Shown piece after piece: positions 20,301 to 26,300 of a stretch of 28,067 nucleotides of DNA. Source of the stretch: a virus. Taxonomy: Duplodnaviria > Heunggongvirae > Uroviricota > Caudoviricetes. Location: positions 1 to 28,067 of IMG/VR virus record IMGVR_UViG_2534682158_000019; one strand, written 5' to 3'. The position numbers are program-made. Each line of letters opens with the position of its first letter. The stretch's first letter is position 1.

Positions 20301-23300
20301 AACTTCCTGCTCACTGGTCGGAGCACTCTCGCGTGCGTTATGTGTGGGGTTTAGATCTTTGGGTTCCTTTGGGTTCCGTGATCCGTTTTTGGGTGTCTTT
20401 GATGGAAAATTTGGGTGTCTTTGGTTATTTTTCATGCAGCTAAGAGTTCCGTTTTTGGGTCTGTTTTGTGCTGAAACATAACCATTTTCGGTACTGTTTT
20501 TATTAACAGCACCAATTTTACCCACCTTTAAAGACTCCCGTTTTTGGGTGTATTCAGGCTCGGCAACACTTTCTTCTACACCGATAAGTCGGTACACCAC
20601 AATTTGCTTTGTTCTGCCTTTTCTCTCACCGGTATCAACAATTAACCCAATCTCCATCAGGTGCCGTAAGCTGTCCTGCACAGTCTTTTTGTTCAGTTCC
20701 GTTACTTCTGCCAGTGCAGATACAGACGGGTATGCACACAAATCGGCACCGCACATATCAGCAAGCCAGGTCAATACAGACTTACTGGATGAACTGCCGG
20801 TTTTCACCTTTTTAGCCCATCGTAGTGCATCGATACTCATACGAACCCCTGGCAGACATTTGTTTATCTGCAAAGTAATATTGATATTGCTGACGATACG
20901 CATGCTTGAAAGCAATAGCTTTTTCTATAAGCTCGTCAGTCTCACGTTCCACAACAGATGGATCCGCAAAAAGCAGCCCGGACTCCACCACATCGCCATA
21001 TTCTTTGTTTAACCCGGCGATCATGTACGTAATGCTTTTTCCGTCAGTAATTTCACAATACAACCTGAAATCGCTGATCCGGATAGCCTCCATAATTGCC
21101 GGAATCAGCGCCGTGAATTTTTCCCGCTTATCCCTGGTGTCGATAGCTTTCCAGCGTTCGAATATCTTCACCCGGTTAACGCCCAGCGCCCGTTGATCAA
21201 CCTCGCCATCATTAAACGTGACGCGTTGAACATCGATGTTCGGGCGTTCTTTCAGAGCCCAGAATGCTTCCGTGATTAATATCGTCGCCTGCTCCTGTGT
21301 CATTCCTGGTCGACATACCCAGGCATCCAGAGCCTCACAAACCTGTTCAGGGGTGATTTTCATTGTTCAACCGCCCCGCCCGCTTTGCCTTACGATATTC
21401 GTCATAAACTTTGGGGTCGTACTGAAGTTCCCCGCCGGATGCCTCTTGCAGGCGCATCGCGCGACCTTCAGGTACTAGCTCCCCTTTCCAGCTATAAAGC
21501 GAAGCCAAACGAATACCAGCAGCTTGTGCAAGTTTTGTTTTTGAACCGAAATACAAAAGTGCGTCAGTTTTAAGCATTTAAAGCACCTTAATTGTTAGTC
21601 ATGACTAACAAAATAGATGTTAACAAAAACATAGTCAATAAGATTTAGCATTAGCTAACTATGGATACAAAAAATTTAACCATTGGCGAACGCATTAGAT
21701 ATCGCCGAAAAAACCTCAAATACACCCAAAGGTCTCTTGCTAAAGCCCTGAAAATTTCTCACGTATCGGTTTCACAATGGGAGCGGGATGATAGCGAACC
21801 TACAGGAAAGAATCTTTTTGCCCTCAGCAAAGTACTGCAGTGCTCGCCAACATGGATTCTATTTGGCGATGAAGACAAGCAGCCATCACCACCTATTGAG
21901 GAGCCAGTTGCTCTATCCCCCAAAGAACATGAGCTCCTTGAGCTTTTTAATGCATTGCCTGAATCAGAACAGGATGCTCAGCTCACCGAGATGCGCGCCC
22001 GAGTAAAAAATTTCAACAAACTCTTTGAAGAGTTATTAAAAGCCCGTCAACGAACAAACAAAAGATAACGCAATCAATGCGTTATCTTTTTGGTTGCCCA
22101 AAATGTTAGCCATGGCAAACAAAAACACTTGACCGAATTGTTAGTCATGACTAATATTGCTTGCATCAAGACACCGCACGGTGTTCTCAGCAAACAGTTC
22201 CGCTACCCCGGCGTTAAGGGGAAATGAGGTCAACATGGATACTATCGATCTTGGCAACAACGAATCTCTGGTGTGCGGCGTGTTTCCCAACCAGGACGGC
22301 ACATTCACCGCGATGACGTATACCAAAAGCAAAACGTTTAAAACCGAAAATGGTGCCCGTCGCTGGCTGGAAAGAAACTCAGGTGAGTGATATGGATTTC
22401 GACACAATCATGGAAAAGGCTTACGAAGAATACTTCGAAGGCCTTGCCGAAGGCGAAGAAGCTCTCAGCTTCAGTGAGTTTAAACATGCGCTTTCCAGCT
22501 CGGCAAACTCTAACGGCTGATAAGCGAAGCAGCACCGCGAGGAATCAGTATGCAGAAACGAGAACCCGTCATCATCGCGCCAGACTATACCGATGATGAA
22601 CTTTATGAGTGGATGCGCCAGAAAATTAATGCAGCTCAGGATCTGAAATGGGCCAATGAAGCCAGGGCTAAGCAGGCTGAAAATCTGTCAGCTCTGGAGC
22701 AGGATATCACCAATCTGGAAAAAGCGGCGGCATTAAGCATTGCCAGAATGATTACATACCCGCGTTAATAGCTAACCAACGAGGCTAATAATGGAATTTA
22801 AAGATTTACCAATGCAATTCCAGGAAATGGCAGCGAATATAGTTCGTTCCCAACTGGCGACTCTTGACCTGAGTACCGTAGAAAAAGAAACCATCGATAC
22901 TATATCCGGTAACGTGCGTCGTGCCTTTATCGGTCTGTACGAAGAGAAGCAGCTCTCTGATAACCAGGATTTACATGAAAAATACTTCCTGGATCTAATG
23001 GACATCATTGATAAGGGGTTTGGCTTGTTAATGAAAAAGAAAGGGATTCGAATAGAACCCCTTGAAAATTACTTTGCAACAAAAAGCATTAATTCTTTTG
23101 ATTCAAAATAAGAGAATTAATTACAGACTTAACATGCTCTTTCTCATGATTGAAGCTCTCATGATTGAAAGTGCCGGGTTGAAGCGAGTCGATATAATCA
23201 ACAAGACTCTGTCGTACGACTTCATTTTTATCCATAACAGATGCAAGAAATGAAATTGCTAAAAGAGTTATATCACTACGCGCCGCAGCATGCTGCAATG

Positions 23301-26300
23301 CTTTATCAAAATTATTAATCTGGCGTATCAGGGAGTTAATGATTTCATCATTTTCAGTCGACATTTCACCCTCCTGAGGGTTGGTGATTAAGGAGTTCTC
23401 CACGGGTGAGGTGGAGTGCGTGCGCCGGACACGGGTGAGCATCCGGCACTGACAGTTTACTGAAAGGATATTTCCCTGAAAAGTCAGACCATAACGCGAA
23501 ATGGCGCGGCGGTAAGTATGGCGGGGTTATTCCTTCCCCGTTGAGGACACCGGTTTGTCAGGTTGACCATACGCTTAAGTGACAACTCCGCTGCAACGCC
23601 CTCTGTTATCAATTTTCTGGTGACGTTTGGCGGTATCAGTTTTACTCCGTGACTGCTCTGCCGCCCTTTTTAAAGTGAATTTTGTGATGTGGTGAATGCG
23701 GCTGAGCGCACGCGGAACAGTTAAAACCAAAAACAGTGTTATGGGTGGATTCTCTGTATCCGGCGTTAATTGTTAACTGGTTAACGTCACCTGGAGGCAC
23801 CAGGCACCGCATCACAAAATTCATTGTTGAGGACGCGATAATGGAAACGTTATTACCAAACGTTAATACGTCTGAAGGGTGTTTTAATATTGGTATTCTG
23901 CTCAGTAACCGGGAGTTTACTGAAGACGCCATCAGGATGAGAAAATATGAACCTTATCTTCTCAATAATAATTCCATACTCTCCAGAATTGCCCTTATTA
24001 AACTTGGTATTTTCGGAGGACGTCAATGACTTCAGCACTTGCACTGGTGATGACGGTTTTTCTTATAACGGGTGAATCACAGAATGTGATTACCGGAATT
24101 TATGCCAGTAAAGAACCCTGCCTCCAGGCAAGAGACGAGCAAAAATTTTCCGGTGAATGCCTCCCGTTAAAAAAGTATCGCTGTACCTGAATAACGAAAC
24201 ACCGGCTGGATAACCGGTCAGCCATATTAACGCCATACCAACGAATTAAAAATGCCAGCAATGGCAGGGATTCATTCACCCTGAAATCTGTAATGAGGTT
24301 AAAACACAATGAGTAAAATCTTTATTTGCGCTGCCATTCCTGATGAACAGGCCATAAAAGACGAGGGTGCTGTTGCTGTGGCCACTGCTATTGAAGCCGG
24401 TGATGAACGTCGCGCCCGCGCAAAATTTCACTGGCAATTCCTGGAACATTATCCGGCTGCTCAGGACTGCGCTTATAAATTTCTTGTTTGCGAGGATAAA
24501 CCCGGTATACCCCGCCCTGCCCTCGATTCCTGGGATGCTGAATATATGCAGGAAAACCGCTGGGATGAGGAGTCTGCTTCCTTTGTCCCGGTTGAGACTG
24601 AATCAGAGCCGATGAACGTCACTTTTGACAAGCTGGCCCCTGAAGTACAGAACGCTGTCATGGTTAAGTTCGACACATGTGAAAACATCACCGTTGATAT
24701 GGTGATTAGCGCGCAGGAATTGTTGCAGGAAGACATGGCAACATTCGACGGACATATCGTTGAAGCGTTGATGAAAATGCCTGAAGTTAACGCCATGTAT
24801 CCGGAGCTTAAGCTGCATGCCATCGGGTGGGTTAAGCATAAATGTATTCCTGGTGCTAAATGGCCCGAAATTCAGGCAGAGATGCGCATCTGGAAAAAAC
24901 GTCGCGAAGGTGAACGCAAGGAAACCGGAAAATACACGTCTGTTGTTGATCTCGCCCGCGCCAGAGCCAATCAACAGTACACTGAAAATTCAACAGGAAA
25001 AATCAGCCCGGTCATTGCTGCCATTCATCGCGAATACAAGCAGACATGGAAAACACTGGATGACGAACTGGCCTACGCTCTCTGGCCTGGTGATGTGGAT
25101 GCCGGAAACATTGACGGCAGCATCCATCGCTGGGCAAAAAATGAAGTTATCGACAACGACCGCGAAGACTGGAAGCGTATCTCGGCATCAATGCGCAAAC
25201 AGCCTGATGCCCTTCGCTACGACCGCCAGACTATTTTTGGCCTTGTCCGTGAACGTCCGATCGACATTCACAAAGACCCTGTGGCACTGAACAAATACAT
25301 TACTGAATACCTGACTACAAAGGGCGTGTTTGAAGATGAAGGAAGAAATCAGAGCGCAACTGATACTCTCTCGTCGCCAGTACCAGAAACTGATGCAGTG
25401 GAAACGGCAATTCCGGACAACGAAAAAACCGAATGCAAAGTGGAAGTCGAACCATCTGTAGAGCGTGAGGGGCCGTTCTACTTCCTCTTCACCGACAAGG
25501 ATGGCGAAAAATACGGTCGCGCAAACAAACTTTCTGGTCTGGATAAGGCACTGGCTGCCGGGGCTACTGAAATCACGAAAGAAGAATATTTCGCCCGCAA
25601 AAACGGTACATACTCAGGTTCACAACAAAATACTGGTGCATCTGACACGACCGCACAACCAGGGCCGGTAAAAGTTACCGCTGACGAAGTAAACAAAATT
25701 ATGCAGGCAGCCAATATCAGCCAGCCTGACGCCGATGAACTGCTTGCAGTATCACGTGGTGAATTTGTTGCAGGGATTAGCGATCCGAATGATCCGAAAT
25801 GGGTGAAGGGGATTGAAACCCGCGATTCTGTGAACCAGAACCAGCAAGAAACGGAACAGAACGACCAGAAAGCGGAACAAAACAGCCCAAATACGCAACA
25901 AAACGAGCCAGAAACGAAACAACCTGAACCAGTAGTGCAACAGGAACCGGAAAAGATCTGCACCGCCTGCGGTCAAAGCGGTGGCGGCAACTGCCCTGAT
26001 TGTGGTGCAGTGATGGGCGACGCAACATACCAGGAAACATTCGATGACAAGAACCAGGTTGAAGTTCAGGAAGACGATTCGGATAAAATGGAAGGCGCTG
26101 AACATCCACACAAGGAGAATGCTGGCAGCGCTCAGGATCACGCCAGCGATAGTGAAACTGGCGAGACGGCAGATCCCTTAATTACGGTGAACGGTCATCA
26201 CGTTATCACATCCACCAGCAGGACGTGTGACCATCTAATGATCGACCTTGAAACCATGGGAAAAAATCCTGATGCCCCGATTATCTCAATAGGTGCAATA

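What the first reader, a model, noticed from the sequence alone, without database searches (positions are those of the whole stretch)
22791..23364. Convergent ORF pair inserted in the dicB operon between ydfC and dicF
As I recall, the ydfC-dicF spacing in K-12 Qin is under 500 bp, but here it is about 850 bp. The extra AT-rich DNA holds a 106-aa plus-strand ORF and a 91-aa minus-strand ORF with a GGAGGG RBS, overlapping tail to tail. The minus-strand gene would be transcribed antisense to the DicF precursor, which could affect DicF processing or act as a small two-gene module.
Basis: partly seen in the sequence, partly recalled or inferred. Interest (0 to 1): 0.5.

Follow-up and report, generated by a model that had tools for sequence, protein, structure and literature searches.

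The report
Swappable antisense gene in dicBF operon
The extra DNA between ydfC and dicF holds two real but uncharacterised phage genes, one of at least five alternative fillings of a variable slot in this prophage family, and the backward-facing gene sits where phage lambda and the Rac prophage carry their exclusion gene sieB.

Summary
ydfC and dicF are 846 bp apart here and 340 bp apart in K-12. The extra AT-rich DNA (about 590 bp, 37.7% GC) is exactly a 106-aa plus-strand ORF (A) and a 91-aa minus-strand ORF (B) with a GGAGGG ribosome-binding site. The two overlap tail to tail by 23 bp.

Both are real genes. RefSeq annotates them as hypothetical proteins. B has dN/dS of 0.30 and is open only in its own frame.

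This is not a one-off insertion. The ydfC-dicF slot is polymorphic in E. coli. About half of 5426 complete genomes have the empty K-12 form. About 17% carry ORF A. At least five B-type ORFs (73-100 aa), falling into four mutually unrelated families, use the same conserved ribosome-binding site and start-codon position on the minus strand.

A and B are not strictly coupled. The same A core pairs with two unrelated Bs or with none, and B relatives occur elsewhere without A.

The best reading is that A is an ordinary early-operon gene and B is an accessory gene interrupting the operon in antisense, at the sieB-equivalent position. B is probably expressed in the lysogen. Its biochemical function, its promoter and any effect on DicF remain unknown.

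Interest is moderate to low.

The parts
22550..22768 (+). ydfC, the last conserved promoter-proximal gene of the dicBF operon and the left border of the slot
   Evidence: PGAP annotation 'protein YdfC'; phrog_1744, E = 1.6e-39
22791..23111 (+). ORF A, 106 aa. A sense-strand gene of the dicBF operon, 22 bp after ydfC, with a GAGG ribosome-binding site.
   Evidence: WP_000394534.1; phrog_6937 over full length, E = 3e-69; 235 homologues; dN/dS 0.19-0.42 against relatives; AlphaFold2 model with three helices, pLDDT 66
22791..22949 (+). Conserved N-terminal domain of ORF A (about 52 aa, MEFKDLP...RRAFIGLYEEK). It is shared by proteins with at least five unrelated C-termini.
   Evidence: Alignment A3; residues 1-55/66 also match phrog_1363, 2151, 9419 and 33007; 40-46% identical to 933W-like Stx phage proteins such as PA2 gp25; found in 929 of 5426 E. 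coli genomes
22950..23111 (+). Variable C-terminal half of ORF A (type 1). The last ~6 codons belong to the B cassette, and the modelled tail is disordered.
   Evidence: C-termini of the different types are not homologous by hhalign; the breakpoint with the 124-aa variant is near codon 100; pLDDT is below 50 for residues 92-106
23089..23364 (-). ORF B, 91 aa. An antisense accessory gene, predicted soluble and folded as a three-helix protein. It is a distant member of phrog_18692.
   Evidence: WP_000102678.1; dN/dS 0.30 and the only open frame; 28% identical over full length to the 92-aa partner of the 133-aa A type; weak phrog_18692 hit for B itself (E = 0.022), strong hits for its relatives; AlphaFold2 pLDDT 73.7; maximum Kyte-Doolittle 19-residue average 1.43, so no transmembrane segment
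23089..23111 (.). 23-bp tail-to-tail overlap of the two coding regions
   Evidence: Other cassette types overlap by 11, 23, 32, 41 or 77 bp.
23031..23063 (-). Terminator-like hairpin for ORF B on the minus strand only (AAGGGGTTCTATTCGAATCCCTT followed by TCTTTTTC). It begins 25 nt after B's stop codon and lies inside ORF A codons 81-91.
   Evidence: Present in most type-1 A genes whether or not B is present. The number of such sites is not above the shuffled expectation, so this is a candidate only.
23365..23378 (-). Conserved ribosome-binding site and start-codon position of ORF B (minus strand CCCTCAGGAGGGTGAA-ATG). At least three mutually unrelated B families use this same site.
   Evidence: Alignments A2 and A8. 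The site is absent from K-12.
23379..23613 (.). Conserved region between the cassette and dicF. On the plus strand it is the 5' part of the DicF precursor. On the minus strand it is the presumed 5' UTR and promoter region of ORF B.
   Evidence: About 98% identical to K-12; the 85 nt next to the ribosome-binding site are almost invariant in 29 distinct flanks; the best promoter-like site is 23482->23454, TTTTCA-17-TAAACT, which scores at background frequency and is not specially conserved
23615..23666 (+). dicF small RNA
   Evidence: Rfam RF00039, 76.7 bits, E = 9.6e-17
23841..24029 (+). dicB, cell-division inhibitor, downstream in the same operon
   Evidence: Pfam PF05358, E = 1.3e-33; PGAP annotation

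Best explanation
The interval holds two real phage genes that evolve separately. They fill a polymorphic accessory slot of the DicA-repressed early operon (ydfA-ydfB-ydfC-[slot]-dicF-dicB-exonuclease) of an Stx2d lambdoid prophage.

ORF A is a sense-strand operon gene. It should therefore be made only when DicA repression is lifted. It has a conserved N-terminal domain of about 52 aa and an exchangeable C-terminal half.

ORF B is one of at least five interchangeable small ORFs (73-100 aa; four unrelated families). Each uses the same conserved Shine-Dalgarno and ATG position on the opposite strand. B thus interrupts the operon in antisense, a 'noncontiguous operon' layout. This is the position where lambda and Rac carry sieB.

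Most likely B is transcribed on its own in the lysogen from the conserved right flank and stops at the hairpin inside ORF A. When the dicB promoter fires, head-on transcription and pairing of the two RNAs would turn it down. Its likely role is a lysogen-benefit function such as exclusion of, or defence against, other phages.

Shown here: both ORFs are coding genes; the slot is polymorphic; the ribosome-binding site and start position are shared; the slot corresponds in position to sieB.

Inferred only: independent expression of B in the lysogen, its promoter, its shut-off on induction, and any exclusion or defence role.
For: **Coding**
- PGAP annotates both ORFs.
- A matches phrog_6937 over its full length.
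- B has dN/dS 0.30, P = 7e-4, and is the only open frame.
- The B family consists of proteins of 90-93 aa.

**Polymorphic slot**
- Every A type has a convergent minus-strand partner: 91, 73, 92, 100 or 77 aa.
- These partners belong to PHROG families phrog_18692, 7249, 8894 and 10348.
- Counts among 5426 complete genomes: empty junction 2693, A 929, B types 198, 88, 126 and 650.

**Shared start site**
- The ribosome-binding site and ATG position are the same for unrelated Bs.

**Independence of A and B**
- The type-1 A core occurs with the window's B (44 distinct regions), with the unrelated 73-aa B (12) or with no B (16).
- A C-termini that pair with homologous Bs are not homologous to each other.
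- B relatives lie beside a cI-like repressor, antisense to the early-left direction, or beside an island integrase, in both cases without A.

**Position analogy**
- Lambda sieB is antisense between N and ral.
- Rac has ydaF (DUF1391) / antisense sieB with a 4-bp tail-to-tail overlap / kilS small RNA / kilR. This mirrors ydfA...B / dicF / dicB here.

**Other**
- A one-directional terminator-like hairpin follows B's stop codon.
- Published precedent exists for prophage immunity genes placed in reverse inside an operon (PMC11364771).
Against: - No convincing sigma-70 promoter was found for B. The best site (23482->23454) scores at about the background rate of 1 per kb, is not better conserved than its surroundings, and is split by an 8-nt insertion in some relatives.
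- Promoter-like and terminator-like counts are not above the shuffled expectation.
- The hairpin is also present in loci without B.
- There are no expression data.
- Nothing links B to exclusion or defence by sequence or fold. It has no Pfam, PADLOC or NCBIfam hit, no solved homologue, and only a generic three-helix fold match at E = 0.44.
- Unlike SieB, B has no predicted membrane segment.
- B is often lost while A stays, so B may contribute little.
Confidence: 0.5

Rival explanations
1. A and B are a cognate pair in a noncontiguous operon. B is an immunity or exclusion protein made in the lysogen. A, and in particular its variable C-terminal half, is the counter-defence protein made from the dicB promoter on induction. 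It neutralises B so the prophage escapes its own system, as with Tai/Ati of phi80 or SieB/Esc of P22.
For: - All five cassette types keep the same convergent, overlapping A-B layout.
- The exchangeable unit mostly spans A's C-terminal half plus B, between a conserved A N-terminus and a conserved B ribosome-binding site.
- A without B is common, as expected for a harmless orphan antidote.
- The literature predicts such pairs in noncontiguous operons (PMC11364771).
Against: - The same A core (about 90% identical through residue ~100) pairs with two unrelated Bs.
- The two homologous Bs pair with A C-termini that are not detectably homologous.
- B relatives in other elements have no A-like neighbour.
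- A's N-terminal domain occurs in 933W-like phages with no convergent partner.
- No interaction was tested.
Confidence: 0.2
2. The main function is at the RNA level. Minus-strand transcription through the slot acts as a cis-antisense regulator of the dicBF mRNA. By transcriptional interference or RNase III cleavage of the duplex, it would tune DicF and DicB output. The B protein would be secondary.
For: - B's transcript would be fully complementary to about 300-400 nt of the dicBF precursor upstream of DicF.
- DicF maturation is known to depend on RNase III and RNase E processing of the transcript from the dicB promoter (PMC10448788; PMC5069750).
- The ribosome-binding-site flank is conserved whatever ORF is plugged in.
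Against: - B is under purifying selection as a protein and keeps its exact length.
- Each alternative B is a recognised phage protein family.
- About half of complete E. coli genomes (2693 of 5426) carry the empty slot and so lack the cassette altogether.
- No promoter was identified.
Confidence: 0.12
3. A and B form a toxin-antitoxin or addiction module that stabilises the prophage.
For: Two small adjacent genes in a prophage with overlapping 3' ends. The window also carries hokD and a YdaT-family gene, so such modules are common nearby.
Against: - The genes are convergent, not co-transcribed.
- There is no hit to any toxin or antitoxin family in Pfam, NCBIfam or PADLOC.
- Each gene occurs without the other.
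- A sits in an operon that DicA represses in the lysogen, so it could not continuously supply either partner.
- Neither protein is hydrophobic like a type I toxin.
Confidence: 0.04
4. One or both ORFs are non-functional remnants or chance ORFs in AT-rich filler DNA.
For: No known function, no domain hits, modest model confidence, and frequent loss of B.
Against: - dN/dS is well below 1, and all alternative frames are closed.
- ORF length is conserved at 76-79% identity.
- B has a strong ribosome-binding site.
- The exact protein sequences are seen on at least 673 (A) and at least 1000 (B) contigs.
- There are PHROG family matches.
Confidence: 0.03

Closest known systems
sieB of phage lambda and of the Rac prophage (superinfection exclusion gene lying antisense in the early-left operon)
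   Same: - Same position and orientation. It is a single gene on the opposite strand, between the promoter-proximal small genes and the cell-division inhibitor of the repressor-controlled early-left operon.
- In Rac the neighbours correspond one to one: a DUF1391 gene, then the antisense gene with a tail-to-tail overlap, then a small RNA (kilS versus dicF), then the division inhibitor (kilR versus dicB), then the exonuclease.
   Different: - No sequence similarity and no Pfam SieB hit.
- ORF B is 91 aa and predicted soluble. The annotated sieB genes are 489 bp (Rac) and 555 bp (lambda), and from general knowledge SieB is a membrane protein.
- No exclusion phenotype has been tested for B.
Noncontiguous-operon immunity/counter-immunity pairs of prophages (TaiEcA/AtiEcA of phi80; S. 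aureus prophage systems of Rostol et al. 2024)
   Same: A gene in reverse orientation interrupts a phage operon that is transcribed only in the lytic cycle. The reverse gene is expressed in the lysogen and falls when the operon is switched on (PMC11364771).
   Different: - Tai interrupts the Q-dependent late operon, whereas this slot is in the early-left operon.
- The reverse-strand phi80 gene is about 204 aa, and B has no tblastn match in 50,697 phage genomes, phi80 included.
- Cognate pairing of A with B is not supported by co-occurrence.
Morons of lambdoid phages (independently expressed accessory genes, e.g. HK97 gp15)
   Same: - Small, AT-rich relative to its flanks.
- Present or absent between otherwise collinear phage genomes.
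- Has its own ribosome-binding site and a candidate terminator.
   Different: - Classical morons bring their own promoter and terminator and sit between late genes in the sense direction.
- Here different ORFs share one fixed ribosome-binding site and ATG position, and the candidate terminator lies inside the neighbouring gene.
- No promoter has been identified.
PHROG families phrog_6937 (A) and phrog_18692 (B relatives)
   Same: A matches phrog_6937 end to end. B aligns over its full length with phrog_18692 members.
   Different: - Both families are of unknown function.
- B itself scores only E = 0.022 against phrog_18692, so it is a divergent branch.
- B has no homologue in deposited phage genomes.

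Membership tests
SieB superinfection exclusion proteins | Sequence membership in the SieB family (Pfam model) | tested here: not met
   No Pfam family at E <= 1 for ORF B. The other B types have none at E <= 0.01.
SieB superinfection exclusion proteins | Inner-membrane protein with transmembrane segments (from general knowledge of SieB) | tested here: not met
   Maximum Kyte-Doolittle 19-residue average is 1.43, below the 1.6 threshold. The model is a soluble three-helix protein.
SieB superinfection exclusion proteins | Gene lies antisense within the repressor-controlled early-left operon, upstream of the kil-type gene | tested here: met
   Compared with the lambda and Rac annotation and the window annotation.
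SieB superinfection exclusion proteins | Aborts or excludes superinfecting phage when expressed from the prophage | not testable with these tools
   Needs plating assays.
Noncontiguous operon | Genes of one operon are separated by a gene on the opposite strand | tested here: met
   ydfA-ydfB-ydfC-A on the plus strand, B on the minus strand, then dicF-dicB on the plus strand. The operon is transcribed from the dicB promoter through dicF and dicB in K-12 (PMC10448788).
Noncontiguous operon | The operon transcript reads through the reverse gene, and the two RNAs regulate each other | not testable with these tools
   No plus-strand terminator-like site was found between A and dicF. Read-through and mutual regulation need RNA data.
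Tai / Ati tail-assembly-inhibition systems | Sequence similarity to Tai or Ati proteins | tested here: not met
   tblastn with ORF B found no match in 50,697 phage genomes. The collection contains phi80.
Type II toxin-antitoxin module | Two co-directional, co-transcribed genes | tested here: not met
   The genes are convergent.
Type II toxin-antitoxin module | Match to a known toxin or antitoxin family | tested here: not met
   No matches in Pfam, NCBIfam or PADLOC.
Type II toxin-antitoxin module | The two partners strictly co-occur | tested here: not met
   A occurs without B in 16 of 87 distinct regions and in both E. albertii loci. B relatives occur without A.
Moron (independent accessory transcription unit in a phage genome) | Present or absent between otherwise collinear relatives, with a different base composition | tested here: met
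   K-12 lacks the DNA cleanly. 2693 genomes have the empty junction. GC is 35% for B against 47-48% for the flanks.
Moron (independent accessory transcription unit in a phage genome) | Own promoter and terminator | tested here: inconclusive
   A terminator-like hairpin is present. Promoter candidates score at background level and are not specially conserved.
phrog_6937 (ORF A) | Full-length profile match | tested here: met
   E = 2.9e-69, residues 1-106 against profile positions 1-106 of 124.
phrog_18692 (ORF B) | Full-length profile match | tested here: inconclusive
   - ORF B itself scores E = 0.022 over residues 9-88.
- Its 28%-identical relative scores 5.9e-63.
- A joint alignment holds over the full length.
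- A profile search recovers both branches together.

The most novel reading that the evidence does not exclude
The ydfC-dicF slot is a dedicated site in DicA/DicB-type prophages for expressing exchangeable genes. A fixed minus-strand 5' region, ribosome-binding site and ATG would drive whichever small ORF (73-100 aa) is recombined in. These ORFs would be a set of undescribed, very small single-protein anti-phage or exclusion factors made in the lysogen. The adjacent chimeric A protein would supply a matching counter-measure on induction. A survey of this one slot would then yield several new miniature defence and anti-defence pairs, present in O157:H7 and other Shiga-toxin phages.
Probability: 0.12. 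Interest if true: 0.6.

Novelty: new member of a known kind. Interest (0 to 1): 0.33.

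Why it matters
The dicBF locus is a textbook example of a prophage small RNA and a small protein that act on the host. The literature describes the stretch between ydfC and dicF as a long untranslated region (PMC5069750). In about 17% of complete E. coli genomes, including O157:H7 and this Stx2d prophage, that stretch is not untranslated. It carries a sense gene and usually an antisense gene.

Work on DicF and DicB in pathogenic strains should therefore allow for an extra operon protein and a convergent transcript upstream of DicF.

The slot is also a compact place to look for new lysogen-expressed phage-exclusion factors, because at least four unrelated small protein families use the same start site. 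None of this changes current understanding unless a phenotype is found.

Tried and rejected
- **Domain and family searches.** Pfam, NCBIfam and PADLOC gave nothing meaningful for A, B or the other cassette proteins. PHROG hits are all 'unknown function'.
- **Solved structures.** Sequence search found nothing below E = 0.1.
- **Structure models.** AlphaFold2 models have modest confidence (B pLDDT 73.7, A 66). Foldseek against the PDB gave only generic helical matches: best E = 0.44 to ribosomal protein bS20 for B and 2.6 for A. I treat both as uninformative.
- **Exhaustive profile search.** The B family searched against 1.84 billion representatives gave only 20 hits. Two of them are long repeat proteins that I regard as spurious.
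- **Species-representative genomes.** The B-family scan of the species-representative genome set found nothing (an earlier attempt failed for lack of a conserved stretch). The A scan found only two E. albertii loci, both without B.
- **Deposited phage genomes.** tblastn with B found no match.
- **Promoter search.** The consensus scan and my own position-weight-matrix scan gave candidates at background frequency. The best one is not specially conserved.
- **Hairpin versus B presence.** I tested whether the terminator hairpin tracks the presence of B. It does not do so clearly. One lineage without B has a weakened stem, but that is a single event.
- **Co-variation of A C-termini with B.** hhalign found no homology between the A C-termini.
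- **Literature.** There are no papers naming the four protein accessions and no K-12 antisense transcription-start data that I could reach.
- **Toxin-antitoxin and chance-ORF readings.** Both rejected, for the reasons given under the rival explanations.

Full report
**1. What is in the sequence**

The window is an Stx2d-converting lambdoid prophage. It is identical to E. coli M7424 (NZ_CP063153) positions 2645106-2673172. Around the finding the gene order is as follows:

| Feature | Coordinates | Strand |
|---|---|---|
| dicC | 21347-21577 | - |
| dicA | 21661-22068 | + |
| ydfA | | + |
| ydfB | | + |
| ydfC | 22550-22768 | + |
| ORF A | 22791-23111 | + |
| ORF B | 23089-23364 | - |
| dicF | 23615-23666 (Rfam RF00039, 76.7 bits) | + |
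| dicB | 23841-24029 | + |
| DUF1482 gene, frameshifted | | + |
| 823-aa exonuclease | | + |

ORF A has 106 codons and starts 22 bp after ydfC, behind a GAGG motif. ORF B has 91 codons and starts behind GGAGGG-TGAA-ATG. The two stop codons lie 23 bp inside each other's reading frame.

**2. Comparison with K-12**

In MG1655 the ydfC stop and the dicF start are 340 bp apart. Here they are 846 bp apart.

The alignment shows that K-12 lacks about 590 bp. The missing stretch runs from ORF A's start codon to ORF B's ribosome-binding site. The window in turn lacks 85 bp that K-12 has further downstream.

The extra DNA is 37.7% GC. The flanks and the whole window are 47-48% GC.

**3. Are the ORFs genes?**

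Yes.
- PGAP annotates both as hypothetical proteins.
- ORF A matches phrog_6937 over its whole length (E = 3e-69). It has 235 homologues in the 5.8-billion-protein search.
- ORF B has few homologues, but they include copies at 76-79% identity that keep exactly 91 codons.
- Against the 79% copy, B's frame gives dN/dS = 0.30 (17.8 synonymous and 24.2 non-synonymous changes; Fisher P = 7e-4) and has no stops. The other five frames have 3-17 stops and higher ratios.
- ORF A gives dN/dS of 0.19-0.42.
- The exact protein sequences occur on at least 673 (A) and at least 1000 (B) public contigs. They come from E. coli, E. albertii and some Salmonella.

**4. The slot is polymorphic**

ORF A's first ~52 residues (MEFKDLP...RRAFIGLYEEK) are conserved, and the rest of the protein varies. 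Every version has a minus-strand partner that converges on it and overlaps its 3' end.

| A version | B partner | 3' overlap | B family |
|---|---|---|---|
| 106/109 aa (this window) | 91 aa | 23 or 32 bp | divergent branch of phrog_18692 |
| 124 aa | 73 aa | 11 bp | phrog_7249 |
| 133 aa | 92 aa | 41 bp | phrog_18692 |
| 122 aa | 100 aa | 77 bp | phrog_8894 |
| 135 aa (PPompW phages, phage Evi, O157:H7) | 77 aa | 23 bp | phrog_10348 |

- The 106/109-aa and 124-aa versions share one 'type 1' core.
- The 91-aa and 92-aa partners are 28% identical over their full length and form one family.
- The 73-, 77- and 100-aa partners are unrelated to that family and to each other.
- All four PHROG families are of unknown function.

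The DNA to the right of the partner, including the CCCTCAGGAGGGTGAA ribosome-binding site and the position of the ATG, is the same for unrelated partners. Different ORFs are therefore plugged into one fixed translation start.

Megablast counts among 5426 complete E. coli genomes:

| Feature | Genomes |
|---|---|
| Empty K-12 junction | 2693 |
| ORF A N-terminal region | 929 |
| 91-aa B (this window's type) | 198 |
| Whole arrangement of this window | 138 |
| 73-aa B | 88 |
| 92-aa B | 126 |
| 77-aa B | 650 |

**5. Are A and B a functional pair?**

The evidence leans against strict coupling. Among 87 distinct 1-kb regions, the type-1 A core occurs with the window's B family (44), with the unrelated 73-aa B (12) or with no B (16) (examples). 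Only A's last few residues change with the partner, because they lie in the overlap. The model shows that tail as disordered.

Conversely, the two homologous Bs (91 and 92 aa) sit next to A C-termini that hhalign does not relate.

Distant B-family members (90-93 aa) were found in two other settings, neither with an A-like neighbour:
- beside a cI-like repressor, again pointing against the early-left direction;
- beside the integrase of an integrative element.

A's N-terminal domain also occurs in 933W-like Stx phages, for example PA2 gp25. There it lies among the recombination genes and has no convergent partner.

**6. Expression signals**

- A minus-strand hairpin followed by a T-run (23063->23031) starts 25 nt after B's stop codon, inside ORF A. 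On the plus strand no T-run follows it.
- The hairpin is present in most type-1 A genes, with or without B.
- No plus-strand terminator-like site lies between A and dicF. This fits the need to read through to dicF and dicB.
- I could not identify B's promoter. The best candidate (23482->23454, TTTTCA-17-TAAACT) scores at a level seen about once per kb in this window. It is no better conserved than its surroundings, and in some relatives an 8-nt insertion splits its -10 element.
- The 85 nt immediately upstream of B's ribosome-binding site are nearly invariant. That block also belongs to the dicBF mRNA, so its conservation cannot be assigned to one strand.

**7. Function**

Nothing in sequence or structure gives a function.
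- No Pfam, NCBIfam or PADLOC hits.
- No relatives of solved structure.
- The AlphaFold2 models are helical. B has three helices at pLDDT 73.7. A has three main helices plus a short, low-confidence C-terminal turn, at pLDDT 66.
- Foldseek matches are not significant.
- Neither protein has a predicted membrane segment.

The strongest clue is position. Lambda sieB lies antisense in the pL operon between N and ral. In Rac the layout matches this window gene for gene: repressor; a DUF1391 gene; antisense sieB with a tail-to-tail overlap; a small RNA (kilS, where this window has dicF); a division inhibitor (kilR, where this window has dicB); and an exonuclease.

The layout also fits the 'noncontiguous operon' described for prophage immunity genes. 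In some cases a counter-defence gene lies in that operon (PMC11364771).

**8. Verdict**

The most likely account (about 0.5) has two parts. ORF A is a normal early-operon gene. ORF B is an exchangeable accessory gene at the sieB-equivalent position, which interrupts the operon in antisense. B is probably made in the lysogen and is possibly an exclusion or defence factor.

The rivals are a cognate defence/counter-defence pair (about 0.2), a mainly RNA-level antisense regulator of dicBF (about 0.12), a toxin-antitoxin module (about 0.04) and non-functional ORFs (about 0.03).

[quoted passage not shown] It remains untested. B's RNA would pair with the upstream part of the precursor rather than with DicF itself.

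The feature is a new, uncharacterised member of a known kind of arrangement. Both genes are already annotated. The dicBF literature calls this stretch untranslated (PMC5069750) and does not mention these genes, and I found no paper naming the proteins.

Noticed in passing
window 23494/23495 (deletion point); K-12 locus L002 about 2679-2763: The window lacks an 85-bp segment, flanked by CGCGAAA repeats, that K-12 Qin and nearly all relatives carry. In K-12 the segment folds into a long imperfect hairpin. That hairpin contains the position about 190 nt upstream of the DicF 3' end, which is where RNase III is reported to cut the 190-nt DicF precursor. This variant may therefore process DicF differently. 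Among the 30 best hits listed, only the four genomes identical to the window matched as a single piece. The other listed hits matched in two pieces spanning about 85 bp more.
   Followed up: partly
window 23395-23449: The conserved block just right of the cassette holds two hairpins with the same loop motif CACGGGTGAG: CTCCAC-GGGTGAG-GTGGAG and GCCGGA-CACGGGTGAGCA-TCCGGC. The block is almost invariant across 29 distinct flanks and is also present in K-12. It could be a processing, antitermination or protein-binding site of the dicBF transcript, or part of ORF B's 5' UTR.
   Followed up: no
window 9480-10720 and the whole window: The window is an Stx2d-converting prophage. Shiga toxin subunits A and B lie downstream of Q and three tRNA genes, and the immunity region is of the DicA/DicC type. 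The integrase (27042-28067), a class II holin and the ydfD-like DUF1482 gene (24026-24213) are annotated as frameshifted, so the prophage may be defective.
   Followed up: no
loci L071, L060, L171 and L172 (relatives); K-12 locus L002: The slot decays in several ways. Many relatives keep the 124-aa ORF A but have lost the antisense gene together with its ribosome-binding site and about 30 nt of the flank. One relative (L060) goes from ORF A almost directly to dicB, with no dicF detected. In K-12 the GAGG ribosome-binding site of ORF A reads AAAG.
   Followed up: partly
window 22728-22745 (minus strand): A second minus-strand terminator-like hairpin (TGGCAATGCTTAATGCCG followed by CCGCTTTTTC) lies inside the 3' end of ydfC. 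The same hairpin (with a one-base change in the T-run tail) was also reported in the three relatives scanned. It could stop antisense transcripts that pass ORF A, but the count of such sites is within the chance expectation.
   Followed up: no
window 23664-23873: A sub-threshold Rfam match to STnc100 (38.7 bits against a gathering score of 47, E = 1.8e-6) covers the dicF-dicB spacer directly after DicF.
   Followed up: no
window 23365-23442 (minus strand): ORF B's frame stays open for 26 more codons upstream, to an ATG at 23442 inside the conserved flank (117-aa form). The unrelated 73-aa partner in L005 has the same in-frame extension, and some gene callers use it. In the PPompW type a stop closes it just before the start codon. 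The 91-aa start with the strong ribosome-binding site is the more likely one.
   Followed up: partly
locus L166 (phage Evi) 3414-3605: Phage Evi carries the 135-aa/77-aa pair next to a Kil gene rather than dicF-dicB. It has a further 63-aa minus-strand gene between the pair and kil, with no PHROG or Pfam match.
   Followed up: no
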